DNA from: Dehalococcoidia bacterium
GTDB lineage: Bacteria; Chloroflexota; Dehalococcoidia; SZUA-161; SpSt-899
Assembly (NCBI GenBank): GCA_048539495.1
Contig: JBLYPS010000008.1
Location: forward strand, 837-64,836
Direction: 5' to 3'
Length of the DNA stretch: 64,000 bases
The translations under genes and the position numbers were made by a program. Shown one piece after another: positions 12,829 through 60,820 of the stretch. The notes under the pieces are model-generated. The model did no database searches, was not told where the DNA came from, and saw nothing but the letters and a program-made list of their open reading frames with translations. The stretch's first letter is position 1. Every line of letters begins with the position of its first letter.

Positions 12829-13558
12829 TCCTTCGACTCCGCTCAGGACAGGTCCACAGCAGAGACTCTGCCTCACCTTCGGTCGGGGCGAGGAGGTAAA
12901 ATACATCACCCATCTGGATGTCATGCGCCTCTGGCACAGGGCACTCCGTCGCGCCGGCATGCCTCTTTTGTACTCGGAGGGGTTCAATCCCCGTCCCAGA
13001 ATCGCCATCGCCGCTCCGCTTGCCCTGGGGGTCACCAGCGAAGCGGAACTGATGGACGTCTTCCTGGAGAGGAAGGTCTCCCTGCATTTCTTTACCAGGG
13101 TGGTGAGCGAGCAGTTGCCACAGGGCATCGAGATTTTAGAGGTGCGGGAATATTGGCCTAAACTCCCTTCGCTCCAATCCCAGTTGCGTTTTGCGGAATA
13201 TCGGGTTGAGGTGGAGTCAAGGAAGTCGCCAGAGGAAGTGAGCCACGCGCTTCGCTCCTTGCTGGCAACCAGAAGCCTGCCCTGGCAACATGCCCGAGAC
13301 AAGGAAACCCGCCGCTACGACCTCCGGGCGCTGATCGGAGCCCTCTGGCTTGTCGATCAGGGGTCAGGGGTCAGGAGTCAGGGATCAGCCCCCACCCCGC
13401 ACCCCCGACAACTGAACGATGCCCGGTATACGCTTGGCATGAGACTGCGCCATGATGCCGGCGGTTCGGGCAGGCCGGAGCAGGTAACTGCTGCCCTGGG
13501 ATTCTCGGAATTTCCCAAATCGATTCACCGTGTCAGACTGATTTTGGCTTCAAGATGA
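12800..13558 (+). CDS. TIGR03936/DUF2344 family radical-SAM-associated protein
   Basis: YITHLDVMRLWHRALRRAGMPLLYSEGFNPRPRIAIAAPLALG matches the family signature. It contains an in-frame element at 13355-13420. The start is uncertain (overlaps the upstream gene by 29 nt). Confidence 0.6.
   Translation: MKRFLSSRGDPSTPLRTGPQQRLCLTFGRGEEVKYITHLDVMRLWHRALRRAGMPLLYSEGFNPRPRIAIAAPLALGVTSEAELMDVFLERKVSLHFFTRVVSEQLPQGIEILEVREYWPKLPSLQSQLRFAEYRVEVESRKSPEEVSHALRSLLATRSLPWQHARDKETRRYDLRALIGALWLVDQGSGVRSQGSAPTPHPRQLNDARYTLGMRLRHDAGGSGRPEQVTAALGFSEFPKSIHRVRLILASR
13355..13420. repeat. composite heptamer element ('ctgatccc' arm, C-rich core, 'cagttga' arm), reverse orientation, in frame in a CDS
   Basis: gatcaggggtcaggggtcaggagtcagggatcagcccccaccccgcacccccgacaactga. 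Same family as 20340-20410, 29950-30025, 36598-36665 and 60700-60765. Confidence 0.75.
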
Positions 13559-19409: not shown

Positions 19410-19475
19410 GGCAGGGCGTAGTAGGTAGCGTGTAGCCTCCCTACCCCCTACACGCTATGCGCTACACGCTAATTG
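19410..19475. repeat. intergenic palindromic element ('tagcgtgtag/ctacacgcta' family)
   Basis: gtagtaggtagcgtgtagcctccctacccctacacgctatgcgctacacgcta. Confidence 0.75.
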
Positions 19476-21123
19476 GTTGTGTCATCACGAGTTTACTCAA
19501 TGCTTCAAAGGAGTACGGGTTTCCCCGGATTGTCTCTGTCCATTCCTTCTTGCCATCCCGCCAGAGCTCGGTCCTCATCCTCACCCTGCCGCAAGAAGGC
19601 AGGAAGATATCCGCCACCACCTCGCCGGAGGATAACTCTAACTTTCCCAGATCGATGCAGTTGTAGATCAGGGCGTCCCTGGTATGCGCATGGGAAAGGG
19701 AGCTAGACACTATGACGCTCCCCGAGATGTCCAGGTAATCAGCGCTCACCCCCAGGAGAATACTGTCCTTCACCCTGCCTTTCGCCTGAGTATCAAGCAA
19801 TATGGAGTTTTCCACGGTCAGCCCACCCGAATAGGAGCTTTCTATCCAGTACCTATCCAGGTCGTAAAACTGCCTCAAGCATTCCCCTTCGAGAGATCTC
19901 TCCAGCAGCCGGAGAAAGTTTTGGTGATAAAGCCGTAGCTGGCCGTAGTCCCACCAGAGGGTCTGGCACCCCAGGTCTTTATCCCCGAATAGCTCAAGCC
20001 CCTCTTGGGCAAGAAACCGCCCTTTGAATCGGTTCACCCTTTCCCAGAGAGCTTCGTCGCCTCCGCCCGACACGAACTCCTCCCGGGTGGAGGTCAGGGG
20101 CATCCAGAGGTGAGGGTCGGTATCCATCCTTGCCCGCTTCTCGGCAAGCTCCGCGGCGAATTCCTCACGCAAAGCTTCCAGCAAGGCGTAAGAGAGCGAA
20201 AAACACCCCAGGCTCTTCCCCATGATTATCCTGCCCGATTCATCCGGTTGGGCCATTCCCCGGTCTATCAGCTTCTTCAGTTCGCTCCAACCTCGTTTTT
20301 CCCTCTGCAGAGCCCCGCTGCCGGCGGCGGGAATACAGTTATCAGAAGTCAGTTGGTAGGGATCAGCCCCCACCCCCCGATCCCTGACCCCTGTAGACTG
20401 TAAACTGATTATGAGTCCGTAGCTCTGCCAGTCCCTCTTCCAGGTCTCTTCATCGGACGGTATTTCGGCTCTGATGCTCAGTATCTCGCCTTGATACTTC
20501 CCCTCAAAACCCACCGACCTTGAGGGGATGAATATCTGATCGCCCCAGAAAACGCAGAGCCTTCCCCCACGGGAGGAAGCAAATGGGCCGGTCTGAAAGA
20601 TCACCCCTTCCAGGACGGTCATGGCGTGCCTCTTGCCATTTGTCTCGATCAGCCGGGGCAGTTTGATGGCCGACTTGTTATTGGCCTCGGCGGCGGGGAG
20701 TGGAGCCATTCTCATGCCCTTGCCGGCGGTATGATACATCGCCACCGAACCTCCGCTCAAGAGTCTGGAGTCTGGAGTCTGGAGTCTGGAGTCCCCCACC
20801 ACCCCCGACTCTCGACTCTCGACTCTCGACTCGTAACGAGGGCTGGCCTGGGCCTTCTCCCAGGCATAGAGTGTGCCCAACAACTGACCGGCCCCGCCCG
20901 GCCAGTCCTCCTCCACCGATATGATCTGTGTCTTTCGGCCGATGACCGAGCCGCGGCCGGCTTCCAGCCGCTCCTGCCAGAAATCCGCCTGATCCCTGTC
21001 CGAGGAAACGACGATGATGACATCGAAGCCGCGGTTGGTCTCCACCGCGGTGTGCATATCTTGAATGTTGGCACGATGCATGATCTCAACCCCTTCCTTA
21101 TCATAGCGCAGAGAGGCCAGCAA
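19462..21123 (-). CDS. putative sugar-1-phosphate nucleotidyltransferase of the fucokinase/GDP-fucose pyrophosphorylase-domain family
   Basis: An N-terminal region (VIIVVSSDRDQADFWQERL...WPGGAGQLLGTLYAW) resembles the fucose pyrophosphorylase domain. It is adjacent to the phosphohexomutase. Two in-frame repeat insertions (20340-20410, 20757-20832). Confidence 0.4.
   Translation of the reverse strand: MLASLRYDKEGVEIMHRANIQDMHTAVETNRGFDVIIVVSSDRDQADFWQERLEAGRGSVIGRKTQIISVEEDWPGGAGQLLGTLYAWEKAQASPRYESRVESRESGVVGDSRLQTPDSRLLSGGSVAMYHTAGKGMRMAPLPAAEANNKSAIKLPRLIETNGKRHAMTVLEGVIFQTGPFASSRGGRLCVFWGDQIFIPSRSVGFEGKYQGEILSIRAEIPSDEETWKRDWQSYGLIISLQSTGVRDRGVGADPYQLTSDNCIPAAGSGALQREKRGWSELKKLIDRGMAQPDESGRIIMGKSLGCFSLSYALLEALREEFAAELAEKRARMDTDPHLWMPLTSTREEFVSGGGDEALWERVNRFKGRFLAQEGLELFGDKDLGCQTLWWDYGQLRLYHQNFLRLLERSLEGECLRQFYDLDRYWIESSYSGGLTVENSILLDTQAKGRVKDSILLGVSADYLDISGSVIVSSSLSHAHTRDALIYNCIDLGKLELSSGEVVADIFLPSCGRVRMRTELWRDGKKEWTETIRGNPYSFEALSKLVMTQPISV
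20340..20410. repeat. composite heptamer element (C family), in frame in a CDS
   Basis: cagttggtagggatcagcccccaccccccgatccctgacccctgtagactgtaaactg. Confidence 0.7.
20757..20832. repeat. family A palindromic element, in frame in a CDS
   Basis: gagtctggagtctggagtctggagtctggagtcccccaccacccccgactctcgactctcgactctcgactcg. Confidence 0.85.
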
Positions 21124-23793: not shown

Positions 23794-23887
23794 CGGAATT
23801 AACCCTTCAGGGTTTCATGCTGCGTGATGAAAGGCTAACCGGAATTAACCCTTCAGGGTTTCATGCTGCGTGATTACAGGCTAAAGC
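23794..23887. repeat. tandem direct duplication (2 x ~47 bp) in the nadK upstream region
   Basis: cggaattaacccttcagggtttcatgctgcgtgatgaaaggctaac / cggaattaacccttcagggtttcatgctgcgtgattacaggctaaag. Confidence 0.85.
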
Positions 23888-27811: not shown

Positions 27812-28396
27812 ATCTGGACATTCATTGTGGCCGGCACCGGGATCCGTTGCCATGGAAATAGAGAATGGAAGTGGTGGTCGAGGGGGGAGTAATCCAGCTT
27901 TGAGCCAGCTTTGTTTGAGCGGATGTTCCAGCACGTATCTGTGAAAATCATCGAACCAGATACGAAATTGCCCTTTCAATCCTTACGAAATCCATCATGT
28001 AGTCATGTATTCCCGAATCTGGCGAGCCCCTCGAAATGGAACATCCGTTGTAGATGCATCCGCAGCGAGGCTCGACACCAGGCCTGAGTGATCGGCGTGG
28101 ATATGAGTAACAAAAAAATCTGCCTTTTTTGGATTCACATCGATTTCCTTCAGTCCAGAGGAGATTGCCCTCATACATTCGGGGCGATTCATTCCGGTAT
28201 CAATGATCAGCGCTTGCCCCCCAGCCTTTACTACGTAGGAATTGATAGCTTTCAGGGGACTATCGGGCAGAGGAACCTCGATCCGGTATAGGTTTGGCAA
28301 AATTTCGTCTACCATAGAACCCTCCTCGTCTATCGGCCAAGCCATGCCTTCACGGCATTGGGCAGATCTCGTGATAGTCCCCTCTCCAATCGACAC
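27737..28396 (-). pseudogene. MBL-fold metallo-hydrolase, apparently frameshifted
   Basis: The first ORF (28396-27995) carries the HIHADHSG motif but stops after 133 aa. Two overlapping downstream ORFs in other frames may continue the fold. It overlaps the 3' ends of both neighbouring genes. Confidence 0.45.
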
Positions 28397-31300
28397 GGTG
28401 GCAATGAATTCACGAACATCGGGCCATAGCTCCTCGTATTCAGCCGGCTATCGAGGACCACCATCACTCCCCGGTCGGTCTTCGACCGGATAAGCCGACC
28501 AAACCCTTGCTTGAATCTAAGGGCAGTCTGCGGCAGGGCGTATTCATTGAAGGGATCAGCAAAGGTCTCCGAGCGAGCGGCGAAGATGGGGTCGGTAGGA
28601 ACATTGAAGGGCAAGCGAACTATGACCAGGACGCTGAGTGCCTCCCCCACCACATCAACCCCCTCCCAGAAACTCGCCGCGCCCAGAAGCACCGTCCGGG
28701 GATTGCTCCTGAAAGTAGAAAGGAGCTGCCGCGGCGAGCCATTCACCCCCTGGCCCAAAACAAGGATGTCTTCCTCCTCCAGCGGAGCCTGGATGACGGT
28801 CTGGGTCGCCCGCAACGCCGCATGAGAGGTAAAAAGAACCAGACAGCGTCCTCCAGTAGCCCGACAGAGTGATACCAGTGCCCTTCCCAGGGCTGCTTGA
28901 TAGCCCGCCCTCCCCGGCTCGGGGATATCCGTGACCAGATAGATCAGCGCCGCGCTGCTATAATCGAAAGGCGATCCCAACAGAAGCTCCCGTAGGACGG
29001 GCATCTTGCCCGTCGCCTCTAAGCTAAGTCGTTCCTTGAGAAATTTGAAGTTGCCTTCCGTGCTCAAGGTAGCGCCGGTGAGGATGAGAGAATCCTTTTG
29101 GGAATAGAGGGAGTTTTGTAAGAGCGATCCCACGTGCAAAGGGGCGGAGCGTAAACATATCGTATTGGTCTTTCTGCCCAGAGTGAGCCAGTGGATAGTG
29201 TTCTCCCTGGGATGGAAAACCAACGAGCTTATCTGGTGCCGCAACTCCTCGTTCGTATTTAGCAGCGAGAGCACCTCAAGCTCCCAATAGTCGAGAGTCG
29301 AGAGTCGAGAGTCGAGAGTCGAGAGTCCCCCTCCCTGCCCCGGACTGCTGACTGCTGACTGCTGACTTATTACATGATGTATCTTCTCCAGTATCCGGGC
29401 AATATCCTCCAGTGACAGAAGCAGATTCTCACAGTTGATCTCGATGTCCGACCATGCTGGCTGAGCGCGAATCGCCATGGTGAGACGCAGGTGGAGATCG
29501 TATTCGCTCTGGGTTTCCGTATAGCCCTGAACAAGATCACGAAGATTATTGAAAAACTCCGAGACCCTACGGCGAACCCTGGATACTCCCAGGATCAGCG
29601 AATGGTTCAGTCGTTCGATATCCTCCTTTATTGATGGAGCCAGATCGCCGATGCGGACGAGGTTTTCCAATTGAGGAAGAAAACCAGATCGATTGCCATG
29701 CGTCTCGTAGATTATCTGATCAAGATGATCGAGAAAGTCCTGCTCCCGAAGCTCAGTGCCGAGTTGATCAGTAGCCACGCCCTCGAGGTGATGGGCCTCA
29801 TCAATGACCAGATGGTGATATTCGGGGAGTATCTCCGCACCAGTAGCCATCTCCGATAAGAGGAGGGCATGGTTAGTGACGATGAGATGCGCCCCTGCCG
29901 CTGCCTTACGGGCGCTGTGAAGGAAGCAGATTCCCCACTGTTCTCGGTTGTCAGTTGTCGGTTGACAGTTGACAGCCCCCCGACCCCCGACCCCTGATCC
30001 CTGATCTCTGATCCCTGAATAGGGACATCGCCGCCCGAGGCAATCGTATCCTTGAGCGCAGACCCGCGGCCAGAACGCAAGCTCCCTGCCATCAAGGTTG
30101 AGCTCGGAGCGATCGCCTGTCTGGGTCGTTGGAAGCCAGACCTGAATCCGAGCCAGAAGCTGGATCACCTCAAATGGCAGGCCGTCGGACTTGCGCAAAC
30201 TGTCCCAGCGCCGCAAGCAGAGATAGTTCGTTCGACCCTTCACCTGAGCCACCTTAAGTTTTGAGTATTGAGTATCGAGTTTAGAGGAGGGAGGGTGGCC
30301 TCCAAACTCAGAATTCAGAACTCTAAACTCCAACGCTGACCCGATCGCTTGAACCAGAGCAGGGATATCCTTGTGCACCAGTTGCTCTTGAAGATTGATA
30401 GTATTGGTGGAAATGACCACCGGCACATTGTTGCGGTAGGCGAAAAACGCCGCTGGCAAGAGATAAGCCATCGATTTGCCCGTGCCCGTGCCTGCTTCCA
30501 CAATCAAGTGCTGGCTACCGTTAAGCGCCTCAGCGGCTGCTCTCATCATCTTGACCTGTTCCGGGCGCTGCTCGTACTGGGGGAATGTCCGGGCCAGAGG
30601 CCCATCGCGCTCAAAGAAACCGGTAAGTTCCTCAATATCCAACAGGACCCTTTCTGCGCTCGGAGTCAACGGTTCATTTAGAGCACGATATCCAACTAGT
30701 TTTGAGTATTGAGTATCGAGTTTAGAGGAGGGGAGGTGGCCTCCAAACTCAGAACTCAGAACTCTAAACTCGAACCCTCTTTCCTCCCACACCTTTCGAA
30801 GTAAGCCGCTGAGCCACCAATCGGTATTAGCGCCTTCGGTGCTAACCTTGACCGCTCCGCGGTCAAGGTTTGTGGTCAGACGTACCAGCTCACCCAGGAC
30901 ACTGGCATCAAGTTCGTATAACCGGTTCAGCAGTACTAAGAAGGTCTCCTTGACCACCAGCGCATCGTTCAGTGCACGGTGAGTGGAGGGGTGAGGAATC
31001 CCGAGGTGCGAGGCCACCGCAGTTAGATTGAGCTGCGGGAGGTGCGGGAGCAGAAGCTTGGCCAGAGCGTAGGTATCGTAGGCGGAATTAGCAAAGTGTC
31101 GTAGCCTGATGCCCTTCTTCTCCAGAAAGCTCAGGTCGAAGGATATATTGTGTCCCACCACCGGGCATCCTTCCAAGAAGGCAATCAATCCCTCCGCTAA
31201 CGCTGAAAATGGTGGCGCGGCATCAACCTCCTCTTGCGAAATGGCGCAGAGCGATCTAATGAAGTATGGTATGGGCCGGTGGGGATTGACCAGGGACTGA

Positions 31301-31419
31301 AATACCTCTATCTCGTGGCCATCCCGAAACTTGACCGCGCCGATTTCAATAATCTCGTCGCTCTCCGGTCGGAGGCCAGTGGTCTCCAGGTCCAGGGCAA
31401 CGTAAATCTGATCCTTCAT
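28330..31419 (-). CDS. dinG: DinG-family ATP-dependent helicase with a fused N-terminal DnaQ-like 3'-5' exonuclease
   Basis: The N-terminal VALDLETTGLRPESDEIIEIGAV is Exo motif I. Walker A VEAGTGTGKS, a DEAH box (VIDEAHHL) and the helicase C-terminal domain follow. Carries at least four in-frame repeat insertions (29281-29352, 29950-30025, 30262-30345, 30700-30772). Confidence 0.85.
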   Translation of the reverse strand: MKDQIYVALDLETTGLRPESDEIIEIGAVKFRDGHEIEVFQSLVNPHRPIPYFIRSLCAISQEEVDAAPPFSALAEGLIAFLEGCPVVGHNISFDLSFLEKKGIRLRHFANSAYDTYALAKLLLPHLPQLNLTAVASHLGIPHPSTHRALNDALVVKETFLVLLNRLYELDASVLGELVRLTTNLDRGAVKVSTEGANTDWWLSGLLRKVWEERGFEFRVLSSEFGGHLPSSKLDTQYSKLVGYRALNEPLTPSAERVLLDIEELTGFFERDGPLARTFPQYEQRPEQVKMMRAAAEALNGSQHLIVEAGTGTGKSMAYLLPAAFFAYRNNVPVVISTNTINLQEQLVHKDIPALVQAIGSALEFRVLNSEFGGHPPSSKLDTQYSKLKVAQVKGRTNYLCLRRWDSLRKSDGLPFEVIQLLARIQVWLPTTQTGDRSELNLDGRELAFWPRVCAQGYDCLGRRCPYSGIRDQGSGVGGRGAVNCQPTTDNREQWGICFLHSARKAAAGAHLIVTNHALLLSEMATGAEILPEYHHLVIDEAHHLEGVATDQLGTELREQDFLDHLDQIIYETHGNRSGFLPQLENLVRIGDLAPSIKEDIERLNHSLILGVSRVRRRVSEFFNNLRDLVQGYTETQSEYDLHLRLTMAIRAQPAWSDIEINCENLLLSLEDIARILEKIHHVISQQSAVSSPGQGGGLSTLDSRLSTLDYWELEVLSLLNTNEELRHQISSLVFHPRENTIHWLTLGRKTNTICLRSAPLHVGSLLQNSLYSQKDSLILTGATLSTEGNFKFLKERLSLEATGKMPVLRELLLGSPFDYSSAALIYLVTDIPEPGRAGYQAALGRALVSLCRATGGRCLVLFTSHAALRATQTVIQAPLEEEDILVLGQGVNGSPRQLLSTFRSNPRTVLLGAASFWEGVDVVGEALSVLVIVRLPFNVPTDPIFAARSETFADPFNEYALPQTALRFKQGFGRLIRSKTDRGVMVVLDSRLNTRSYGPMFVNSLPPCRLERGLSRDLPNAVKAWLGR
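29281..29352. repeat. family A-type element with a variant right arm (gactgct units), in frame in dinG
   Basis: gtcgagagtcgagagtcgagagtcgagagtcgagagtccccctccctgccccggactgctgactgctgactgctgac. Confidence 0.8.
29950..30025. repeat. C-family composite heptamer element (cagttga units, C-rich core, tgatccc units), in frame in dinG
   Basis: ggttgtcagttgtcggttgacagttgacagccccccgacccccgacccctgatccctgatctctgatccctga. Confidence 0.8.
30262..30345. repeat. family B palindromic element (gagtat(t/c) units, GGAGGG core, aactcag units), copy 1 of a direct pair in dinG
   Basis: gttttgagtattgagtatcgagtttagaggagggagggtggcctccaaactcagaattcagaactctaaactcc. Confidence 0.85.
30700..30772. repeat. family B palindromic element, copy 2 (same orientation, about 440 bp downstream, in frame in dinG)
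   Basis: gttttgagtattgagtatcgagtttagaggaggggaggtggcctccaaactcagaactcagaactctaaactcg. Confidence 0.85.
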
Positions 31420-33225: not shown

Positions 33226-33231
33226 ACGTGA

Positions 33232-33310
33232 AAAGTTAGAGTTCTGAGTTTTGAGTTTAGAATCCATTCCCCTCCTCCCTCCTCGAAGCTCTATACTCAA
33301 AACTCAATAC
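33232..33310. repeat. family B palindromic element (reverse orientation) at the ispE / rsmA junction
   Basis: agttagagttctgagttttgagtttagaatccattcccctcctccctcctcgaagctctatactcaaaactcaatactg. Confidence 0.8.
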
Positions 33311-35171: not shown

Positions 35172-35250
35172 CTCCTTATTTAGCGTGTAGCGCATAGCGT
35201 GTAGGGAGTAGGGAGGCTACACACTACCTACTATCCGCTACACGCTGCCC
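35172..35250. repeat. intergenic palindromic element ('tagcgtgtagcgcatagcgtgtaggg...ctacacgct' family)
   Basis: ttagcgtgtagcgcatagcgtgtagggagtagggaggctacacactacctactatccgctacacgctg. Confidence 0.8.
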
Positions 35251-35781: not shown

Positions 35782-35797
35782 TTCTTACTACCCCCCA

Positions 35798-35875
35798 TTT
35801 AGCGTGTAGCGCATAGCGTGTAGGGGGTAGGGAGGCTACACGCTACCTACTACCCGCTACCCGATGGTGTGCTCT
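35798..35875. repeat. intergenic palindromic element, second copy of the 35172-35250 family
   Basis: ttagcgtgtagcgcatagcgtgtagggggtagggaggctacacgctacctactacccgctacccg. Confidence 0.8.
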
Positions 35876-35887: not shown

Positions 35888-37654
35888 TTAGAGATTACTG
35901 ATGTCGCGCGGCTTGCTGCCAAACTCCACCTTCTCCACTGGTGATTCGATCATCTCGGTGATGGCTGCCCCCGGCGCGACCATCGGGTAAACGTTCTCCT
36001 CGGGCTCGACCACGAAATCAATGAGGAAAGGCCCTGGATGATCCATCGCCTGCTGAATGGCGGGAATCACCTCAGCTTTGCTCCTTACCCTGAGGGCGGG
36101 CAGGCCATAGGCCTCAGCAAGCTTGACGAAGTCGGGGCCGCTAAGCGGGGTGGCGACATAGCGGCGCCCATAGAACATTTCCTGCCACTGCCGCACCATC
36201 CCGAGATAGCCATTATTGAGGATGGCTATCTTAACGGCAATATCGTCTTGAACTATGGTGGCCAGTTCCTGCACCGTCATCTGGAATCCCCCGTCGCCGG
36301 CGACACACCACACGCAGTCATCAGGGAGCCCTACCTTCGCCCCAACGGCTGCGGGCAGCTCAAAGCCCATCGTTCCTAATCCACCGGAGGAGATGAGACT
36401 GTTGGGCTTGTCGTAGCAATAGTGCTGCGCCGACCACATTTGATGCTGGCCGACGCCGGTGACAATGGTGGCCCTGCCGGCGGTAACCTGGTGAATCTTC
36501 TGTATCACATATTGGGGCAGTAGCTGCTCGGTTTCCCGAATCACGGTTGACGGATGCTCGCGGCGCCACTCTTCTATCTGCCGAATCCATCCGAGTCGGC
36601 AGTCGCCAGTTGGCAGTTGACAGTCCTCCGACCCCTGGCCTCTGTCCCCTGATCCCTCGATCTGCTTGTTCAACGACTGTAATACATTCTTGATGTCTCC
36701 CACGATGGGCACGCTCACCTTGAGGTTCTTTCCGATCTCAGCAGGGTCAATGTCAATATGAATGATCTGGGCGTGCGGAGCAAAACCAGATACCTTTGCG
36801 GTGGCTCGGTCGTCGAACCGCATTCCGATAGCGATGATGAGATCCGCGGCATCTACTGCCAGGTTGGCATAGGCCATGCCGTGCACGCCCAGCATGCCGA
36901 AGCTGAGGACGTGGCTTTCGGGGAAGCAGCTGATGCCCAGAAAGGTTGTGACAACCGGCACTTGAGCTTTCTCCGCCAGTTCCTTGAGCTCTTGGTAGGC
37001 TTTGGAGATGATGACCCCGCGCCCGGCGATGATCGCCGGGCGTTTCGCCTCGTTTATAAGCCTGGCCGCTTTCTTTATCTGCAATGGATGCCCCTGGACG
37101 GTCGGGCAGTATCCTGCCAGATTGACCCTGGCGGGGTAGGCGAAGGCAGCCTCATCGGTGAACACATCGCGCGGGACGTCAATGAGCACCGGCCCCGGCC
37201 GTCCGGTGGTGGCGATGTGAAATGCTTCCTTGAACACCTTAGCCATGTCCTCTACCCTGGACACCTGATAGTTGTGCTTGGTAATGGGCACAGTGATGCC
37301 GATGATGTCTATCTCCTGGAAGGCATCCTTGCCGATGAAATGTCTGGCGACCTGGGCGGTTATGGCTATCACCGGCGAGGAGTCGAGATGGGCACTGGCG
37401 ATGCCGGTGACCAGGTTGCAAGCCCCCGGTCCTGAGGTGGCAAAGCAGACGCCTGCTTTGCCGGTGGCGCGGGCATACCCATCGGCGGCGTGGGCCGCCC
37501 CTTGCTCATGGCGCACCAGGATGTGGCGCAGTTGGGGATACTGGGGCAGCACATCATACAGGGGCAAGATAGCTCCACCGGGATAGCCAAAAACGACCTC
37601 CACCCCCTCGTTAATTAGCGATTGGCAGAGCATTTGGGCACCATTCATTCTCAT
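35888..37654 (-). CDS. ilvB: acetolactate synthase large subunit (biosynthetic type)
   Basis: Thiamine-diphosphate enzyme N-terminal, central and C-terminal domains (GGAILPLYD..., GDGGFQM). An in-frame C-family insertion (36598-36665) gives ...GSGDRGQGSEDCQLPTGDCRLGW.... Confidence 0.9.
   Translation of the reverse strand: MRMNGAQMLCQSLINEGVEVVFGYPGGAILPLYDVLPQYPQLRHILVRHEQGAAHAADGYARATGKAGVCFATSGPGACNLVTGIASAHLDSSPVIAITAQVARHFIGKDAFQEIDIIGITVPITKHNYQVSRVEDMAKVFKEAFHIATTGRPGPVLIDVPRDVFTDEAAFAYPARVNLAGYCPTVQGHPLQIKKAARLINEAKRPAIIAGRGVIISKAYQELKELAEKAQVPVVTTFLGISCFPESHVLSFGMLGVHGMAYANLAVDAADLIIAIGMRFDDRATAKVSGFAPHAQIIHIDIDPAEIGKNLKVSVPIVGDIKNVLQSLNKQIEGSGDRGQGSEDCQLPTGDCRLGWIRQIEEWRREHPSTVIRETEQLLPQYVIQKIHQVTAGRATIVTGVGQHQMWSAQHYCYDKPNSLISSGGLGTMGFELPAAVGAKVGLPDDCVWCVAGDGGFQMTVQELATIVQDDIAVKIAILNNGYLGMVRQWQEMFYGRRYVATPLSGPDFVKLAEAYGLPALRVRSKAEVIPAIQQAMDHPGPFLIDFVVEPEENVYPMVAPGAAITEMIESPVEKVEFGSKPRDISNL
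36598..36665. repeat. C-family composite heptamer element, in frame in ilvB
   Basis: ggcagtcgccagttggcagttgacagtcctccgacccctggcctctgtcccctgatccctcgatctg. Confidence 0.8.
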
Positions 37655-42246: not shown

Positions 42247-43122
42247 GTGAACCGGAGCGATAGGCGACGCTGCGTCAAGGAGAGCGGACTCATGAACCTA
42301 GACATCGTCTTGATCGACCTGCTGACTCCAGAGGGAGTCCTCACCACGTACAAGATCTGTCCGAAGGGCGGACCAAGGGGGCTCACGATCAATCGGTACC
42401 GGGACGTTTTCCCTGAACGGTTCAGTGACGACGACCTAGAGATTGGAGGTACGCGACTGTACAGCGCATCCAGTTGCTCGATAGAAAAACTCGCCTCTCG
42501 GTTGAGGTCGTTCCGCCTGGACGAGTGCAGTCACTCCTTTTCGTTTCAATTCGAGCACATGGGGGTTCCGGTTGGGCCATCGAGGGAAGCGCACGGCGGC
42601 ATGTACAACTTCGTGTTACCACCCGGTTGGCGCTGCCGCGAGCTGTATGTCTCAGATCCTTACGATCGGAAGTACGATGATGTCAGGAAGAAGAAGCACT
42701 TCCAGCACTCAGTGCTCTGGGATCCCGAGTGCTCCACACAACTCGTCGAGATGCTGCTCCGATCAAGTCGTGGCTCGTCCTCCTTCATCGTCGCGGGCTC
42801 GGCATCGCTTGTGGCAGGCGATCCGCCCGACACGCCGTACGTTGCTTCACAGGAAAGTAGCTGGCCCAGTTCGCGAGTATCGGACACATATCTGCTCGAC
42901 TCAGAGGGCCGTAATCGCCTCGCAGACGAATTGGCGGAGAAGTCCGACTGGCTTGAGCTCAAGCCCAACATCTTTGGCTTGGGCGTCAATCCCAACCAAA
43001 TGATAAAATACGCCATTCGCCATTTCCAGGAGAAGGTCAGACCACGCGAACATGCAGGTAGGGCATCGCCTAACACCGGGTTGCAGCCGACGTTGCTCCG
43101 CTACGCTCCGCGACGCGGCTGA
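42247..43122 (+). CDS. hypothetical protein (no recognisable domain)
   Basis: 291 aa, hydrophilic and Cys-rich, GC-rich codon usage consistent with the neighbouring island genes. An alternative start is the Met at 42292. Confidence 0.45.
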   Translation: MNRSDRRRCVKESGLMNLDIVLIDLLTPEGVLTTYKICPKGGPRGLTINRYRDVFPERFSDDDLEIGGTRLYSASSCSIEKLASRLRSFRLDECSHSFSFQFEHMGVPVGPSREAHGGMYNFVLPPGWRCRELYVSDPYDRKYDDVRKKKHFQHSVLWDPECSTQLVEMLLRSSRGSSSFIVAGSASLVAGDPPDTPYVASQESSWPSSRVSDTYLLDSEGRNRLADELAEKSDWLELKPNIFGLGVNPNQMIKYAIRHFQEKVRPREHAGRASPNTGLQPTLLRYAPRRG

Positions 43123-43153
43123 ACCCGACGGTTAGGCCGGAAAGGGTGGCCAC

Positions 43154-43954
43154 ATGCAAGTTGAAAGTTTCCAATACCGGGACCCGACGGTCCGATCCGT
43201 TCGAATGAGCCGACGGGCTCTTCTTCAGAGGCTCTGCAACCCGCCTCAAGAGGGCAGATGGTTGCTTGCAATTGATCCCGATACATTGGTTGCAAGCATC
43301 GTCGTTCAGAGACCCGATGGGTTCGTCCCAGACGTGCAGGGACACGAAGATCTTTTCCCACTCCTGATGGCAATCGAGCGGCAGGATGGTTTCATTCAGG
43401 GCGGAGACTGGCTCGTAGCGAGCACACCGGCCAAGCGTGAAAGCGACGGCATTTATCGGAGCTATCGGGTTGAATGGGATGATCCGAACCCGGTCATCAT
43501 GGACCCAGGAATCCCGGTCCCTCACACTGGAGCGCTACGGGTCTTCTTGTGCCACGCATCGCAAGATAAGCCTCGAGTACGCGAGCTTTACGAACAAATT
43601 CTGCGATGGGGATACCGTCCCTGGCTCGATGAAGAGAAAATACTTCCAGGTCAGGACTGGAAGGCGGAAATCCGAAAAGCGATTACGGGCACATATGTGG
43701 TGGTCGTTTGCCTCTCACGCAAGGCCACAACGAAAGCAGGTTTCGTTCAAGCGGAGATCGCGCATGCTCTGGATGTCGCAGATGAGCAGTCTGACGGGAC
43801 TATCTTCATCGTACCCCTTCGGCTTGAGGATTGCCGAGTCCCCGATCGGCTTCAGAGATGGCAGTGGGTGGACTTTTTTGGAGAGAAGGGACCAGACCTG
43901 TTTCAGTATGCTCTCAGGACGCGCGCAGCGACCCTTGATTTCGACAATGACTGA
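43154..43954 (+). CDS. TIR-domain protein with an unknown N-terminal domain
   Basis: The C-terminal ~140 aa read RVFLCHASQDKPRVRELYEQILRWGYRPWLDEEKILPGQDWKAEIRKAI...YVVVVCLSRKATTKAGFVQAEIAHALD...IVPLRLEDC. This is the bacterial TIR layout (FxSY/HxxxD, WxDxxxxxPGxxW, SxxxxxSxWxxxEl). The N-terminal ~130 aa match nothing I recognise. Confidence 0.75.
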   Translation: MQVESFQYRDPTVRSVRMSRRALLQRLCNPPQEGRWLLAIDPDTLVASIVVQRPDGFVPDVQGHEDLFPLLMAIERQDGFIQGGDWLVASTPAKRESDGIYRSYRVEWDDPNPVIMDPGIPVPHTGALRVFLCHASQDKPRVRELYEQILRWGYRPWLDEEKILPGQDWKAEIRKAITGTYVVVVCLSRKATTKAGFVQAEIAHALDVADEQSDGTIFIVPLRLEDCRVPDRLQRWQWVDFFGEKGPDLFQYALRTRAATLDFDND

Positions 43955-44186
43955 CATTTGGAATTGGCCTAACAAAGCGCTCCACACGAACTGCCGCTCC
44001 GGTCTCGGCTTCGGCCTGAGCGTCGGGCATTTCGACACTGGTCGGCCTGATCACTTCTTCGCCAAGGCGGCGGTCGGTGAGCTGTGTCGTTGGACGGCGT
44101 GCCATGCATCACCAGCACCGCAACGACCCCATCCACATATCCCGCATTGCTTGCTTGTCTTTCAATTCAGGGTACAATGAGGGTCA

Positions 44187-44420
44187 ATGCGCTTTGAGAT
44201 TATCAGTGAAATCATACACGTCGAAACCATCGCCGTCGGCTCGTCCATTCGCGAGATTACACGTTTACGAAAACGTTACGGCAAGGGGCGCTGGCGGAAG
44301 ATGAAAGGCGTGGCGACCATCCAGTTAGCGAATGGCAAAGTTCGGTTGACAGAAATCCACTGGTACGAAGCGCACGGAATTGGCAAGAAGGAGTACAAGC
44401 GGAAACGCTATTTGGACTAA
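44187..44420 (+). CDS. small basic hypothetical protein
   Basis: 77 aa, Lys/Arg-rich C-terminus (HWYEAHGIGKKEYKRKRYLD). Forms a tight pair with the next small ORF, a TA-like arrangement. Confidence 0.35.
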   Translation: MRFEIISEIIHVETIAVGSSIREITRLRKRYGKGRWRKMKGVATIQLANGKVRLTEIHWYEAHGIGKKEYKRKRYLD

Positions 44421-44431
44421 GGTTAAGGGCA

Positions 44432-44689
44432 ATGAAATCCGTCAAATCACTTCCGGGCAAGTTTGCAATCTGTGTCAATAACGCCGACTATCCCGTCTCG
44501 CTGGAACTGCACAAGCTCTATGGCCTGGTGCCAGATGAGGAGGCCGAGCGAGATGGCGACTTGCGCGTGATTGACGAAAGCGGCGAAGACTATTTGTATC
44601 CAGCGGAGTATTTTCTGGTGGTGGAATTCCCTCAGACGATACAACAGGCATTACAAACGTCTTTCGCACGCACAGTGCAACCCGCGTAA
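44432..44689 (+). CDS. small acidic hypothetical protein
   Basis: 85 aa, acidic (DEEAERDGDLRVIDESGEDYLY). Starts 12 nt after the previous ORF. Confidence 0.35.
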   Translation: MKSVKSLPGKFAICVNNADYPVSLELHKLYGLVPDEEAERDGDLRVIDESGEDYLYPAEYFLVVEFPQTIQQALQTSFARTVQPA

Positions 44690-44784
44690 GCGTCAAATCC
44701 AGGCACGCGGTCCAACACGGCATGCGGCCGACCGCTTCGCGCTGCGCCCTCGCCGCGGCTGATGCCCACGTTAGGCGACGCGGT

Positions 44785-46230
44785 ATGAACCCTTTCTTGC
44801 CAAGCCCTATGATGGAATCGATCTCCGACTATACTCTTGAAAGATTCTCGCGAGCGGTCACGCTCACAGTTCTCGAACTGGACGTAGACCGCCATGCACT
44901 CGTTCCCGCCTACCTCATAGCCAACCTCATGTCGCCAGCTTTGTGGAGATGGCGGGAAGAGCGCAGAGCCTGCGCTCGGAATGGGCAGCTCTTGGGCGCG
45001 AACCGCCGTCTCAAGGAGCTCGAAAGACACTTCCACCGATACACATTCACGCACTTCGCAGACCAGCCAGGCGGCGATCCGTGGGGCTTACTCAGCTTCT
45101 CAGACGAAGAACAGCGTCTCGGGAGCGAGTACGTTCGACATGCGCGGCAGGAGTACGACGAGACGCTTAAGGGCCTGCTGAGGCAGAACCCTGATAGCCA
45201 GTTCGGGCAGATCGTCAAGCAGGATTACTATGAGCGTGGATACTTCCCACGGCTGAGGAATGAGACCCTCGAGGTAATGGACGCGTATTCCACCATTTCG
45301 GACGACGGCAGAGGCTCGGGCAAGTGTGCCGCACTCGCAATGCTTTGGGCAGCCGCGCTTATGGTTTGGGGCCGCTTCCCTCCTGAGAGAATCGCACTGA
45401 TAGGGAACCGTGCCCACGTATTCGTGTTCCTCGATGAGGATAATGGTCACCTCTTCAACAACACAAAGTGGTTCAGTCGGACAAGAATCCACAACGCGTC
45501 GGAGCTCTCCGAGTTCGTGAAGATGGTTACGACCGGCACGAGCACAACGTTCTTCTACTGCCCATCCCTCGGAATGTGCCAGTGTTCAGAGAGGAAATCG
45601 ACGATCCCGTGCGATCACTTAGTGGAGTTGTACCGCCATGTTCGAGACTTCCTCTCGGTTCCCCTGAGGCACCCGGACCCGGCGAACATCTGCTTCGAGG
45701 GAGTATCTGATCCCATTCCGCTCCCATCCGCGTACACCTCAGCCCAGGACTATCGTGATGCCGTCTGGGCCTTGGCGGATCGTCGCCCGGAGTCGGTCTA
45801 CGACTTGGCTCGGTATGCATACCGGTCGCTGGATGTGCCTGCGCCCGCGGTATACGCTCGGGCCGCTCTTCGTGACTATCATGCCCAGGACGCAGCGCGG
45901 CGCATCGGAGATCTCGAAGGGGCCATAGAGTTCGTAAGGAGGATACCCGGACGCCGTTCCGTATTCGACAGCAGAGAACGTATCCAGCTGCCTGACGAGA
46001 CGTTGGCCTTCCGAACAGGCGATGACAGCGACAGGGCACTGCTTCTGTTCACCTTACTTTCGCACTCCTGTGGGCAGTCATCTCGGGTCGGGGTCGCCTT
46101 GACCGATGATGCCAGCTATGTGCGTTTCGAGGGGCTCTGGGTAAATGCTGGTACGCTGTCGGTCGAGTCCCGGACGCCTGAAGGAGTGACCTCTGTGTTC
46201 AACGAGATGGGGAGTTCAGTCGTTTCGTGA
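44785..46230 (+). CDS. large hypothetical protein with a possible transglutaminase-like/papain-like Cys-His-Asp core
   Basis: A GSGKCAALAMLWAAALMVWG segment is followed about 30 aa later by HVFVFLDEDNGHLFNNTKW. That spacing suggests a transglutaminase-like cysteine protease core, but this is uncertain. 482 aa from the Met at 44785; the ORF track starts at 44722. Confidence 0.4.
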   Translation: MNPFLPSPMMESISDYTLERFSRAVTLTVLELDVDRHALVPAYLIANLMSPALWRWREERRACARNGQLLGANRRLKELERHFHRYTFTHFADQPGGDPWGLLSFSDEEQRLGSEYVRHARQEYDETLKGLLRQNPDSQFGQIVKQDYYERGYFPRLRNETLEVMDAYSTISDDGRGSGKCAALAMLWAAALMVWGRFPPERIALIGNRAHVFVFLDEDNGHLFNNTKWFSRTRIHNASELSEFVKMVTTGTSTTFFYCPSLGMCQCSERKSTIPCDHLVELYRHVRDFLSVPLRHPDPANICFEGVSDPIPLPSAYTSAQDYRDAVWALADRRPESVYDLARYAYRSLDVPAPAVYARAALRDYHAQDAARRIGDLEGAIEFVRRIPGRRSVFDSRERIQLPDETLAFRTGDDSDRALLLFTLLSHSCGQSSRVGVALTDDASYVRFEGLWVNAGTLSVESRTPEGVTSVFNEMGSSVVS

Positions 46231-46554
46231 CAACAGGATCGCCTAACAAGTCGCTGTTATGCAAAAAGTGGCTCTCCTCAAATAAGTGGGGATTTTTGCC
46301 CCGGCCCGCCACGCTCAATCAAGACGCAGAGCGGTGATTATCAAAGAAGGGTAACTACAAGCTCGACAAATGAGCTTCTGAATCGTGCCGCTGAGACTCT
46401 CAGTAAAATCATGTGGGGGATACCTTACCCCACTAAGAGCCTCCAAAAAGTCAAGGTTTTTGCGGCTCATATAGCTCACCTGGCAAAGGGAATTGTTGCA
46501 TTTCTCGGCACAGTGTTCTATATTGTTAGCAGTGGGTTAGCCTAAGTCGTTGAG

Positions 46555-46983
46555 TTGATTAATTTATGGGTCAGACAAGATTTCGGAATTAGAAAGAGGA
46601 GAAAGAAGTTGAAACAAAAGTGTTCCAATCCAAAAATGTCAGAGATTTTGTTAGAGTATGCCTCTGATTATATCGGCATGGGAGTAACTTTAGAGGAAAA
46701 AGGGCACTACCTGAATTCAGCTATTATGGCATGGAATCTTTCCCTGTTCCCAGAAGGCGAAAGAGAAAAACAAAAGCAGGCAACTCTAAAAAGGCTCGAA
46801 GAATTGACTCCTGGTTCCAAGAATCTGGAGATTCTAAAACACAATTTGGCTATCTTGATCAAGAAAAAACTAACGCAATTCCCTGAGATTAAGGAGCTAA
46901 TCCTCAACGCAGAAATCAGCATTGTTGACGGCAAAGAGTGTCTATATGTTGCTTCTACTGATTTGCAGGAAACCAATGATTAG
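46555..46983 (+). CDS. hypothetical protein in a very AT-rich patch
   Basis: Lys-rich with low-GC codon usage, unlike its neighbours. The start may be the Met at 46636. Confidence 0.35.
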   Translation: MINLWVRQDFGIRKRRKKLKQKCSNPKMSEILLEYASDYIGMGVTLEEKGHYLNSAIMAWNLSLFPEGEREKQKQATLKRLEELTPGSKNLEILKHNLAILIKKKLTQFPEIKELILNAEISIVDGKECLYVASTDLQETND

Positions 46984-47245
46984 CACAGGGCCAATGGTGA
47001 CATCATCCTGATTTTGGAGAGTCTTATCAAGCGTAGTCCTCAGAGCGTGGGAAAGCCTACTACAAGGGGAAGGACTTGACGGGAGTACGTAGCTCGCAAA
47101 GAGCCTGCCCTGAGCGAAGCCGAAGGGAAACTTATGCCGGACATAGCAGGACCGGAGCAACATAAGCCAAACTCCCTGCGGGGAATAGCAAACAGGTCGG
47201 GAGCCGGCAACGGTTACGACCTGCGCGGAACCGAGTACAACCGAG

Positions 47246-47279
47246 GAACCGGATGCGGGAAAATCGCACGTCCGGGTCT
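47246..47279 (+). ncRNA. group II intron domain V-like motif (probable degenerate intron 3' remnant)
   Basis: GAACCGGATGCGGGAAAATCGCACGTCCGGGTCT resembles the domain V consensus GAGCCGTATGCGATGAAAGTCGCACGTACGGTTCT. It has the same 2-nt AC bulge and helix register, and a hairpin follows. No intron-encoded reverse transcriptase is present. Confidence 0.4.
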
Positions 47280-47365
47280 GTGCGGGGGGCGACGGGTAAC
47301 CGGCGTTCCTACCGCGGCGGCTTGGAGTGAGTGATGAAACAGAGGGTATCATATAGAAGGTTAAC

Positions 47366-50501: not shown

Positions 50502-50615
50502 TGTCGGAGCGTGATGCCAGACTTTAGCTTCGCCAAAGCGACTCTCAGGGGCGCGCTACGAAAATCCAGGTTGGAGGAGGTGCTATGTATAAATAACCGA
50601 AGTTGAAACCAGGGT

Positions 50616-54290: not shown

Positions 54291-54523
54291 GTGGAATAAC
54301 AGGCGGGTAATACTGTCAAATGACGTCCACTATTTTTGACTGCCTCGACCTGGGTAGAGATTATACCCCTCGCCCTAGGGCCGTCAAGGGTAAAGGCTTT
54401 GCCCGATCTGAAGCTCGCCCTTGACAGCCCGGCGGGCTCGGGATAACGTTTCCAGTAACAAGTCGAGGCAAGTTTGCATCTTTTTGGAGTAGCAGTCATT
54501 TGACAGAATAGGTAATCGTAGTT

Positions 54524-60656: not shown

Positions 60657-60765
60657 TTGGAGTCGATAGTCGAGGGTCTGGAGTCTCCCGCCTTCCCTCC
60701 TGCATTCGGGGGCCAGGGGTCGGGGGTCAGGGATCAACCCCGCCCCCCGACCCCTGTCAACTGAG
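60657..60765. repeat. adjacent family A-like (60657-60700) and C-family (60700-60765) heptamer elements upstream of queA
   Basis: gagtcgatagtcgagggtctggagtctcccgcc... and ccaggggtcgggggtcagggatcaaccccgccccccgacccctgtcaactga. Confidence 0.75.
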
Positions 60766-60820
60766 CCCTGTAAACCAGTATGTTCCTCATGCTCGATTGA
60801 GCCCTAGCGATGAAAGAGGT

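What the first reader, a model, noticed from the sequence alone, without database searches (positions are those of the whole stretch)
36598..36665. Family C composite elements (cagttga arm, C-rich core, tgatccc arm) inserted in ilvB and other genes
Five copies are in the window (13355, 20340, 29950, 36598, 60700), in both orientations. Unlike family A, the two arms use different heptamers (cagttga and tgatccc) around a ccccgacccc core. In ilvB the element adds ...GDRGQGSEDCQLPTGDCRLGW... to an enzyme whose orthologues are highly conserved. At least eight families share the same architecture (7-nt tandem arms plus a G/C core), which points to a common, lineage-specific mobilisation mechanism.
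Basis: seen in the sequence. Interest (0 to 1): 0.6.

Follow-up and report, generated by a model that had tools for sequence, protein, structure and literature searches.

The report
Heptamer repeat elements inserted in genes
This Chloroflexota genome carries many 50-80-base elements built entirely of 7-base units; several, including one in the acetolactate synthase gene ilvB, sit in frame inside essential genes and are absent from the same genes of close relatives. This is a real, little-described variant of known bacterial heptamer repeats, and how it spreads is not known.

Summary
Five "family C" elements are present. Each is a continuous run of in-phase heptamers: CAGTTGN-type units, a C- or G-rich middle, then CCCTGAY-type units.

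Four lie in frame inside genes: DUF2344, a 553-aa gene, a dinG-like gene and ilvB. DNA and protein comparison with relatives shows all four are lineage-specific insertions of 54, 75, 75 and net 48 nt, with no target-site duplication. The gene's sense strand is always the stop-free strand.

About half of the roughly 26 heptamer elements in the window are inside coding sequence. Strains differ by ±7, 14 or 21 nt in arrays and by the presence or absence of a whole 63-nt element. A related MAG carries a family C copy in tilS that the window lacks.

- The two arms are not unrelated. They share complementary (T)CAG/CTG(A) cores, forming "beaded" imperfect hairpins.
- The proliferation is lineage-specific: 0.5-1.3 arrays per kb against 0-0.1 in relatives.
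- The same CAGTTGN…CCCTGAY architecture occurs in at least eight other bacterial groups.
- No transposase is in the window.

The most likely reading is non-autonomous, copy-pasted heptamer-unit repeats, reshaped by slippage and filtered by selection. The copying mechanism is inferred, not shown.

The parts
36595..36656 (+). Family C element in ilvB. It is 62 nt where the sister species has 14 nt (net +48 nt, 16 codons). In 7-nt register it reads CAGTCGC CAGTTGG CAGTTGA CAGTCCT CCGACCC CTGGCCT CTGTCCC CTGATCC. It is translated on the minus strand as GSGDRGQGSEDCQLPTGDCRLG.
   Evidence: 16-aa gap in all 11 orthologues; DNA compared with L126; maps to the variable segment late in the PDB AHAS alignment; weak fold.
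35888..37654 (-). ilvB, the acetolactate synthase large subunit. It is 588 aa here against 564-574 aa in nearly all of the 120 listed homologues (one is 581 aa). It is the host gene of the element.
   Evidence: (identical protein in 9 contigs from 4 NCBI assemblies and Logan runs).
29942..30018 (+). Family C element in the dinG-like exonuclease-helicase gene (28330-31419, minus strand). It is a net 75-nt in-frame insertion, translated roughly as SGIRDQGSGVGGRGAVNCQPTTDNRE.
   Evidence: (clean gap against L126).
20332..20406 (+). Family C element in the 553-aa gene (19462-21123, minus strand). It is a clean 75-nt insertion with no target-site duplication. It is a nested palindrome: outer CAGTNNN/NNNACTG units around an inner GGGATC...GATCCC hairpin.
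   Evidence: absent in 6 orthologues; junction ...CATAATC|AGTTTACAG...CTGTATT|CCCGCC; z = -3.4 on the mRNA strand.
13355..13416 (-). Family C element in the DUF2344/TIGR03936 gene (12800-13558, plus strand). The 54-nt insertion is 13363-13416. The flanking GATCAGG (13355-13361) mimics a unit. It is translated as SGVRSQGSAPTPHPRQLN.
   Evidence: Pfam match stops at profile position 153 of 176; present in L154, absent in L155 and 6 other orthologues; z = -2.65 and -4.1.
60707..60766 (-). Intergenic family C element between the hflX stop (60821) and the queA start (about 60651). It forms a strong hairpin, AGGGGTCGGGGGG...CCCCCGACCCCT, and is identical in three other assemblies.
   Evidence: -47.3 kcal/mol, z = -3.3; no T-tract terminator.

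Best explanation
These are non-autonomous dispersed repeat elements of about 50-80 nt, composed wholly of in-phase heptanucleotide units. They are relatives of the heptamer repeats known from cyanobacteria, Xanthomonas and Beggiatoaceae.

Shown:
- They were inserted, without target-site duplication, into sites that are empty in close relatives.
- They have proliferated specifically in this Chloroflexota lineage.
- Their arrays gain and lose whole units: ±7 or 14 nt outside genes, ±21 nt inside genes. This is what slipped-strand mispairing would produce.
- Inside genes, only copies that are in frame and have the stop-free strand as sense are found. They add Gly/Ser/Arg/Gln/Asp-rich peptides at positions that vary among orthologues.

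Inferred:
- New copies arise by templated copy-and-paste from other arrays. The likely route is template switching or ectopic repair synthesis, primed by a few bases of homology between the target and a heptamer unit, rather than a dedicated cut-and-paste transposase.
- The periodic mismatches (a few unpaired bases in every 7) are what lets such quasi-palindromes persist.
- The in-gene copies have no function of their own and are tolerated passengers.
For: Insertion status:
- ilvB: 16-aa gap in all 11 orthologues, including one of 89% identity. At DNA level, 62 nt replace 14 nt.
- dinG: +75 nt.
- 553-aa gene: +75 nt with intact flanks.
- DUF2344: +54 nt.

Recent activity:
- L154 tilS has a 69-nt family C copy that the window lacks.
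- A 63-nt element in ispE is absent from a strain 98.6% identical in nucleotide sequence.

Copy-paste: two 78-nt copies about 95% identical lie at different dinG sites, with a third intergenic. Copies 13355 and 20340 share a 19-nt core.

Slippage: strain differences of exactly 7, 14 and 21 nt fall within arrays.

Templated or microhomology character:
- No target-site duplication was seen at any junction inspected.
- At three inspected sites (ilvB, ispE and dinG) about 14-45 nt of the relative's sequence is replaced rather than simply split.
- The flank at the G-rich end mimics a unit: GATCAGG at DUF2344, with ATC in all four genic empty sites.
- A relative has only one arm, (GACTCCA)3, where the window has a full composite.

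Selection filter:
- 5 of 5 genic family C copies have the strand without TGA as sense.
- All 12 in-gene indels compared with L126 are multiples of 3.
- The DUF2344 insert diverges about as fast as its gene (4 of 54 nt against 8.7% region-wide), and 3 of the 4 changes are non-synonymous.

Non-autonomy: no transposase in 64 kb and no recurrent neighbouring gene.

Lineage burst: 0.53-1.35 arrays per kb against 0.10 in the sister species and 0.00-0.05 in more distant relatives.
Against: - No donor-recipient pair was identified for any family C copy, and family C copies are too diverged from one another to prove copying.
- The ATC or unit-like flank is not universal. L154 tilS abuts GGTAG, and the dinG case is ambiguous.
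- Only 64 kb plus a few contigs were seen, so a trans-acting enzyme elsewhere in the genome cannot be excluded.
- Recurrence of the same unit pair in many phyla is not explained by a purely passive repair process. It hints at a specific recognition or synthesis mechanism.
- Translation of the inserts is inferred from intact reading frames, not observed.
Confidence: 0.5

Rival explanations
1. The elements are hairpin MITE-like elements mobilised in trans by a single-strand HUH/Y1 transposase of the IS200/IS605 or REP-associated (RAYT) type. This enzyme would recognise the beaded hairpin and insert it next to a short target motif without duplicating the target.
For: - No target-site duplications were seen.
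- Three of the five copies have clear hairpin potential (z about -3 or beyond on at least one strand); the dinG copy is marginal (about -2.4).
- The elements are non-autonomous and occur as a lineage-specific burst.
- The G-rich end abuts ATC in four of four genic empty sites and TTC in two other copies.
- The same architecture across phyla and in three viral contigs would fit a horizontally moving enzyme-element pair.
Against: - Element ends and lengths are not conserved, and there are no subterminal hairpins.
- There is no GTAG or CGTC tag.
- The ilvB and dinG copies fold weakly.
- Target DNA is often replaced.
- The L154 tilS junction lacks ATC.
- No such gene is in the window or next to the elements elsewhere.
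Confidence: 0.22
2. Each array grew in situ by replication slippage from a chance heptamer-like seed in the gene, with no transfer between loci.
For: - Unit-number polymorphism of ±7, 14 and 21 nt.
- A seed-like flank, GATCAAGG, at the empty DUF2344 site.
- A single-arm array in L135 where the window has a full element.
- Heptamers are reported as the commonest long simple repeats in bacteria (Mrazek 2007, as summarised in PMC4679880).
Against: - Independent loci share complex non-repetitive cores: AGGGATCAGCCCCCACCCC in copies 13355 and 20340, and the three-copy 78-nt family.
- The empty sites of dinG and the 553-aa gene contain no seed.
- Two different arm types plus a core would have to arise together at each site.
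Confidence: 0.1
3. The elements are selected functional modules. They could be structured RNA or G-quadruplex regulators, phase-variation switches, or useful flexible protein linkers, rather than selfish or neutral DNA.
For: - The strong, strain-conserved hairpin upstream of queA.
- G-rich units resemble G4-forming heptamer repeats (PMC4692102).
- Unit-number changes at gene ends alter a C-terminus.
- The unit vocabulary is widely conserved.
Against: - The host genes are unrelated housekeeping genes, and the insertion positions show no common logic.
- The insert peptide evolves at about the same rate as the surrounding region, mostly non-synonymously.
- The ilvB copy has lost its structure.
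- There is no Rfam family and no terminator signature.
- Presence or absence varies between near-identical strains.
Confidence: 0.08
4. The elements are an assembly or binning artefact, or the affected genes are pseudogenes.
For: The sources are metagenome-assembled genomes, and repeats can be mis-assembled.
Against: - The identical 588-aa ilvB occurs in 9 contigs from four NCBI assemblies of at least two projects and in independent Logan assemblies.
- All about 14 in-gene elements keep the frame open across essential genes.
Confidence: 0.02

Closest known systems
TAACTGA heptamer direct repeats of marine Beggiatoaceae, Cyanobacteria and Bacteroidetes (MacGregor 2015, PMC4679880)
   Same: - The unit is almost the same. 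TAACTGA is the complement of TCAGTTA, which in register is CAGTTAT. Family C uses CAGTTGA and CAGTTGT, and copy 20340 literally contains CAGTTAT.
- The phylogenetic distribution is scattered.
- Inside ORFs only the stop-free orientation occurs, often in variable or surface regions.
- Mobility is suspected, with no mechanism known.
   Different: - Those repeats are simple one-unit direct arrays, mostly just upstream of start codons, and are predicted to be unstructured.
- Here the arrays are composite: two different unit types plus a G/C core, forming quasi-hairpins.
- About half of the elements here lie inside coding sequence, and the host is a Chloroflexota lineage.
STRR heptamer repeats and small dispersed repeats (SDR) of heterocystous cyanobacteria (Mazel 1990; Elhai 2008; from my own knowledge, papers not held in the library)
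   Same: They are dispersed tandem heptamers. Small elements are embedded in heptamer arrays, with presence or absence at orthologous loci and no known mobilising enzyme.
   Different: - The canonical STRR units (CCCCAGT, TTGGTCA, CAACAGT) are not the units found here.
- The phylum is different.
- STRR and SDR are essentially intergenic or in RNA genes, not routinely in frame in protein genes.
Rickettsia palindromic elements, RPE (Ogata 2000; from my own knowledge)
   Same: They are palindromic repeats inserted in frame into unrelated housekeeping genes. They are absent from orthologues and are translated as extra surface peptides.
   Different: RPEs are 100-150 bp, have conserved family sequences and a fixed reading frame, and are not built of tandem heptamers. 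There is no sequence relationship.
REP/REPIN elements with RAYT transposases, and IS200/IS605-derived palindromic MITEs (PMC3116915 and PMC3733652, seen only as search hits)
   Same: They are short imperfect palindromes, non-autonomous, without target-site duplication, and occur as lineage-specific bursts.
   Different: - REPs carry a conserved GTAG or CGTC tag and a conserved sequence, and they are extragenic.
- None of these features holds here, and no RAYT gene was seen.
G-quadruplex-forming GGGNATC heptamer repeats of Xanthomonas and Nostoc (Rehm 2015, PMC4692102)
   Same: They are G-rich heptamer arrays containing GATC-like cores, with variable unit number, and they are widespread.
   Different: - The register differs: GGGATCA and GGGGTCA here against GGGNATC there.
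[quoted passage not shown]
- They are not paired with a second arm.

Membership tests
Bacterial heptanucleotide tandem repeats (long simple sequence repeats; STRR/TAACTGA class) | Head-to-tail repeats of a 7-nt unit, two or more copies, dispersed at many loci | tested here: met
   There are 36 period-7 runs in 64 kb. All five family C copies stay in 7-nt register throughout.
Bacterial heptanucleotide tandem repeats (long simple sequence repeats; STRR/TAACTGA class) | Unit-number polymorphism between strains (slippage) | tested here: met
   Differences of exactly 7, 14 and 21 nt occur inside arrays between strains more than 98% identical. No such polymorphism was seen in the family C copies themselves.
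Cyanobacterial STRR sensu stricto | Units CCCCAGT, TTGGTCA or CAACAGT in heterocystous cyanobacteria | tested here: not met
   The units here are CAGTTGN, CCCTGAY and GGGRTCA. The host is a Chloroflexota MAG lineage.
TAACTGA repeats (MacGregor 2015) | The unit is exactly TAACTGA, in simple direct arrays, mostly immediately upstream of start codons | tested here: not met
   The dominant unit differs by one base (CAACTGA or ACAACTG). The arrays are composite, and 4 of 5 lie inside genes.
Rickettsia palindromic elements (works-like comparison) | In-frame insertion in protein-coding genes, absent from orthologues | tested here: met
Rickettsia palindromic elements (membership) | Conserved 100-150-bp RPE family sequence in a fixed frame | tested here: not met
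   The elements are 54-77 nt and heterogeneous, and they are read in all three frames because 7 is not a multiple of 3. No direct sequence comparison with RPE consensus sequences was possible.
Classical MITE | Target-site duplication flanking the element | tested here: not met
   Filled and empty junctions in the 553-aa gene, DUF2344, dinG and ispE show no duplication.
Classical MITE | Terminal inverted repeats matching an autonomous IS in the genome | not testable with these tools
   Only the window and a few contigs of the lineage could be read. No transposase is in the window.
REP/REPIN-RAYT | Conserved 5' GTAG or CGTC tetranucleotide and extragenic location | tested here: not met
   No such tag occurs at the element ends, and about half of the elements are intragenic.
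IS200/IS605-type single-strand transposition | Insertion at a fixed tetra- or pentanucleotide on one side, with no target-site duplication | tested here: inconclusive
   No target-site duplication was found. ATC abuts the G-rich end in four of four genic empty sites, and TTC in two further copies. The L154 tilS copy abuts GGTAG.
Known structured RNA families (Rfam 15) | Match to a curated covariance model at the gathering score | tested here: not met
   The only Rfam hit in the window is a group II intron domain at 47244-47318.

The most novel reading that the evidence does not exclude
The CAG-N4/CTG-N4 'beaded hairpin' heptamer composites may form a distinct, pan-bacterial class of mobile or self-propagating DNA with its own, still unknown, generating mechanism. 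Candidates are a unit-recognising HUH enzyme or a templated heptamer-synthesising activity. The class may occasionally be carried by phages. In this Chloroflexota lineage it would have undergone a burst that colonised the coding sequence of many essential genes, a free-living-bacterium counterpart of the Rickettsia RPE phenomenon.
Probability: 0.25. Interest if true: 0.8.

Novelty: new variant of a known kind. Interest (0 to 1): 0.6.

Why it matters
Short repeats are normally excluded from bacterial coding sequence. Here about half of some 26 heptamer elements in 64 kb sit in frame in housekeeping genes: ilvB, tilS, ispE, rsmA, a dinG-like gene and others. Some are polymorphic between near-identical strains.

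This gives a tractable natural system for three questions:
- How does small non-autonomous DNA spread without a nearby transposase?
- How do proteins absorb random Gly/Ser-rich loops?
- Why are heptamers the preferred unit of bacterial tandem repeats? Mrazek (2007) and MacGregor (2015) raised this question, and it remains unanswered.

The same two-arm unit pair recurs in at least eight other bacterial groups. That points to a shared mechanism or constraint that I found no description of.

There is also a practical side. Such inserts inflate protein lengths, can mislead annotation and homology modelling in MAGs, and provide high-resolution strain markers.

Tried and rejected
- **Literature.** The searches found the TAACTGA and GGGNATC papers. 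They found nothing on composite heptamer hairpins in coding sequence or in Chloroflexota. The search on raw heptamer strings returned only noise. Elhai 2008 is not held in the library.\n- **AlphaFold2 model of ilvB from 12 sequences.** Mean pLDDT was 59.7, too poor to use. It shows the insert (residues 335-355) as coil between two helices, which I do not count as evidence.\n- **Rfam.** No family matches the elements.\n- **Terminator and promoter scan around the queA-upstream copy.** Nothing was found.\n- **Pfam on 30 window ORFs.** No transposase, recombinase or reverse transcriptase was found.\n- **All-against-all comparison of ORFs from 46 element-bearing loci.** No shared neighbouring gene appears beyond orthologous Acidobacteriaceae loci.\n- **A fixed ATC target.** This was suggestive, but the L154 tilS copy contradicts it, so I kept it only as a microhomology hint.\n- **Integral-heptamer insertion lengths.** Rejected.
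Full report
**Source and setting.** The window (GC 54.7%) comes from an uncultured Chloroflexota lineage. Its 588-aa IlvB is encoded identically on nine contigs. These come from four NCBI MAG assemblies (QLUK, QLUL, QLUM, BBPD) and independent Logan assemblies of DRR093102 and DRR093104. The species-level relative in the GTDB set is titled 'Chloroflexota bacterium isolate BS517'. The sequence, inserts included, is therefore not an assembly accident.

All five reported copies are present.
- Tandem CAGTTGA and tandem TGATCCC are each enriched over shuffles: 3 against 0.32 and 9 against 1.18.
- The composite pattern CAGTTGWCRG-N5-35-CCCTGAYCCC hits four of the five sites against 0.00 expected.
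- Read in register, every copy is one uninterrupted series of 7-nt units. The ilvB copy reads CAGTCGC CAGTTGG CAGTTGA CAGTCCT CCGACCC CTGGCCT CTGTCCC CTGATCC.
- The 'core' is therefore itself in phase with the arms. The first half uses CAG-NNNN units and the second half CTG-NNNN units.

The arms are thus not unrelated. Their (T)CAG and CTG(A) cores are complementary while the other positions are not. The result is a hairpin that pairs 3-5 bases and mismatches 2-4 in every 7. The commoner GAGTCNN/GACTCNN family in the window follows a similar plan, pairing 5 and mismatching 2.

RNA folding supports a hairpin for 13355, 20340 and 60700 (z from -2.3 to -4.1). It is marginal for 29950 (about -2.4) and absent for the ilvB copy (z = -0.2 and -0.6).

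Pairwise comparison splits 'family C' into two subgroups plus one nested palindrome.

**They are insertions.**
- *ilvB.* Nearly all of the 120 best homologues are 564-574 aa (one is 581 aa). In a 12-sequence alignment the window protein alone carries GSGDRGQGSEDCQLPTGDCRLG where the others have six residues such as SRTHID. The syntenic locus of a sister species (L126, about 87% IlvB identity) has 14 nt where the window has 62. In the PDB alignment this lies in a segment late in the protein that also varies in length in plant AHAS.
- *dinG-like gene.* The same genome comparison shows a clean 75-nt family C insertion.
- *Other families.* The comparison with L126 also shows in-gene insertions of 39, 42, 42, 54, 57, 63 and 63 nt in rsmA, dinG and ispE.
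- *553-aa gene.* It carries a 75-nt insertion with intact flanks...CATAATC|AGTTTACAG...CTGTATT|CCCGCC. The insertion is absent from a relative of 81% identity and five more distant orthologues.
- *DUF2344 gene.* Its 54-nt insertion is shared with one relative (L154, 90% amino-acid identity). It is absent from the next relative (L155, 88%) and from six others.

None of the junctions shows a target-site duplication.

**They have been active recently and change by whole units.**
- L154 carries a 69-nt family C-type element, (CAGGGGT)4...(CAACTGN)n, in tilS where the window has none.
- A strain 98.6% identical in nucleotide sequence lacks a 63-nt element of another family in ispE. The same strain has a different family at one intergenic site.
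- Arrays differ between strains by exactly 7 nt (intergenic), 14 nt (at a gene's 3' end) and 21 nt (inside dinG, frame preserved).
- Two 78-nt copies about 95% identical sit at different places in dinG, with a third between ilvB and the M16 peptidase gene. This is the clearest sign of copying between loci.
- The family C copies themselves are identical among the strains available.

**Coding sequence is heavily colonised.** About 14 of some 26 heptamer elements in the window lie in ORFs. The hosts are DUF2344, tilS (2), a phosphomutase-like gene, the 553-aa gene (2), dinG (4), ispE (2), rsmA and ilvB.
- All five genic family C copies, counting L154 tilS, have the G-rich/CAACTG strand as the sense strand. 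The other strand has TGA in every CCCTGAY unit, so the reverse orientation would terminate the protein. MacGregor made the same argument for TAACTGA repeats (PMC4679880).
- The encoded peptides are rich in Gly, Ser, Arg, Gln and Asp.
- The DUF2344 insert differs at 4 of 54 nt between two lineages, about the same as the surrounding region (8.7%). Three of the four changes alter the peptide. This suggests weak constraint.

**Lineage-specific burst, non-specific vocabulary.** Period-7 arrays per kb are as follows.

| Locus | Arrays per kb |
|---|---|
| Window | 0.53 |
| Other contigs of this clade | 0.57-1.35 |
| Sister species (L126) | 0.10 |
| More distant relatives | 0.00-0.05 |

In 42 of these, at least three in-phase CAG-type units precede at least three in-phase CTG-type units. 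By my own rough calculation fewer than one such case is expected among 119 chance matches. The 42 come from Acidobacteriota, Nitrospirota, Desulfobacterota, Planctomycetota, Gemmatimonadota, Dehalococcoidia, Cyanobacteria and Desantisbacteria. Some are nearly superimposable on the dinG copy, for example L035, L045 and L052 with ...CAGTTGTCAG...CCCCCGACCCCTGACCCC. Most are intergenic and a few lie in long ORFs. Three of eleven viral-contig hits have the same form.

**Mechanism.** No transposase, recombinase or reverse transcriptase lies in the window. No gene recurs beside the elements across phyla.

Several features argue against a classical MITE or REP model:
- There are no target-site duplications.
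- Element ends are variable.
- At three inspected sites 14-45 nt of the relative's sequence is replaced.
- Copies are mosaics of a few unit types.

Two further features fit templated copying:
- The flank at the G-rich end resembles a unit. It is GATCAGG at DUF2344, and ATC occurs in all four genic empty sites.
- One relative has a single arm where the window has a full composite.

These fit best with template switching or ectopic repair synthesis primed by microhomology, followed by slippage and purifying selection. I hold this at about 0.5.

A trans-acting single-strand HUH transposase remains a serious rival at about 0.2. It would better explain the cross-phylum recurrence and the ATC/TTC flanks. 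The L154 tilS junction (GGTAG) and the unconserved ends count against it.

Pure in situ growth is unlikely because separate loci share non-repetitive cores. A dedicated function is not supported.

The periodic mismatches may be what allows such quasi-palindromes to persist, since long perfect palindromes are unstable in bacteria. This rests on established knowledge and inference and was not tested here.

**Relation to known elements.**
- The nearest described relatives are the TAACTGA heptamer repeats (PMC4679880). Their unit differs by one base from the family C arm, and their orientation constraint in ORFs is the same.
- Next come cyanobacterial STRR/SDR elements and GGGNATC repeats (PMC4692102).
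- In behaviour the closest analogue is the Rickettsia palindromic element.

This case fails the defining features of each as a member. It has different units, a composite two-arm architecture, no conserved family sequence, no tag and no target-site duplication. I therefore class it as a new variant of a known kind.

Noticed in passing
window 48162-58500: A complete type I-C CRISPR-Cas locus: Cas3, Cas5d, Csd1/Cas8c, Cas7, Cas4 and Cas1. It is followed by an array with the repeat GTCGCCCCCCACGCGGGGGCGTGGATTGAAAC. Spacers differ between strains.
   Followed up: partly
window 47244-47318 (+), with ORF 44722-46230: An Rfam group II intron match (42.9 bits, covering the full 77-position model). It lies about 1 kb downstream of a 502-aa ORF with no Pfam match. 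No reverse-transcriptase domain was found nearby.
   Followed up: no
window 42247-47000: A defence-like island with a TIR-domain protein (43154-43954). In strain L001, HigB/HTH and ParE toxin-antitoxin genes are present. Part of the island differs between strains L001 and L002.
   Followed up: no
window 30833-30874: A 42-nt in-frame insertion in dinG, absent from L126, that is a perfect 12-bp palindrome (AACCTTGACCGC gga GCGGTCAAGGTT). It is not built of heptamers and is a different kind of small insert.
   Followed up: partly
window 12832-12852, 15412-15432, 47104-47124(-): A small dispersed repeat, TTCGACTCSGCTCAGGACAGG. The first copy is a 24-nt in-frame insertion at the DUF2344 N-terminus that is absent from L154 and L155. 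The second lies in tilS, next to the site where L154 has a family C element.
   Followed up: partly
window 33226-33256 compared with L003: At one intergenic site the window has an ACTCAAA-type array, while a strain 98.6% identical in nucleotide sequence has a GGTGATT/ACTAATC composite. Different families occupy the same site.
   Followed up: partly
window 62086-62112 (3' end of the aminotransferase gene 62043-63314): A 14-nt (two-unit) strain difference falls in an array overlapping the gene's end. Public gene calls give 397 and 408 aa, and the maximal ORF in the window is 423 aa. This may be C-terminal phase variation.
   Followed up: partly
window 35178-35241, 35797-35860, 19418-19476: A repeat of about 60 nt, 95-98% identical (TAGCCTCCCTACTCCCTACACGCTATGCGCTACACGC...). 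It flanks ilvN on both sides and also lies between the 553-aa gene and the phosphomutase-like gene.
   Followed up: no
L077 7000-7340 (Thermodesulfovibrionia MAG BS2bin.1): Five CAGTTGT/CCCTGAT composites in direct succession form a higher-order tandem array with a period of about 49-63 nt.
   Followed up: no
window 7774-7914 and 23794-23884: Two unrelated longer tandem repeats: a 66-nt unit repeated 2.1 times and a 46-nt unit repeated 2.0 times. The second lies just upstream of the archease-rtcB genes.
   Followed up: no
L135 2393-... and L137/L138: In distant relatives the open reading frame continues past the 553-aa homologue through a mannose-6-phosphate-isomerase-like segment and a phosphomutase, about 1,460-1,500 codons in all. 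In the window these are separate genes (19462-21123 and 17463-19400).
   Followed up: no
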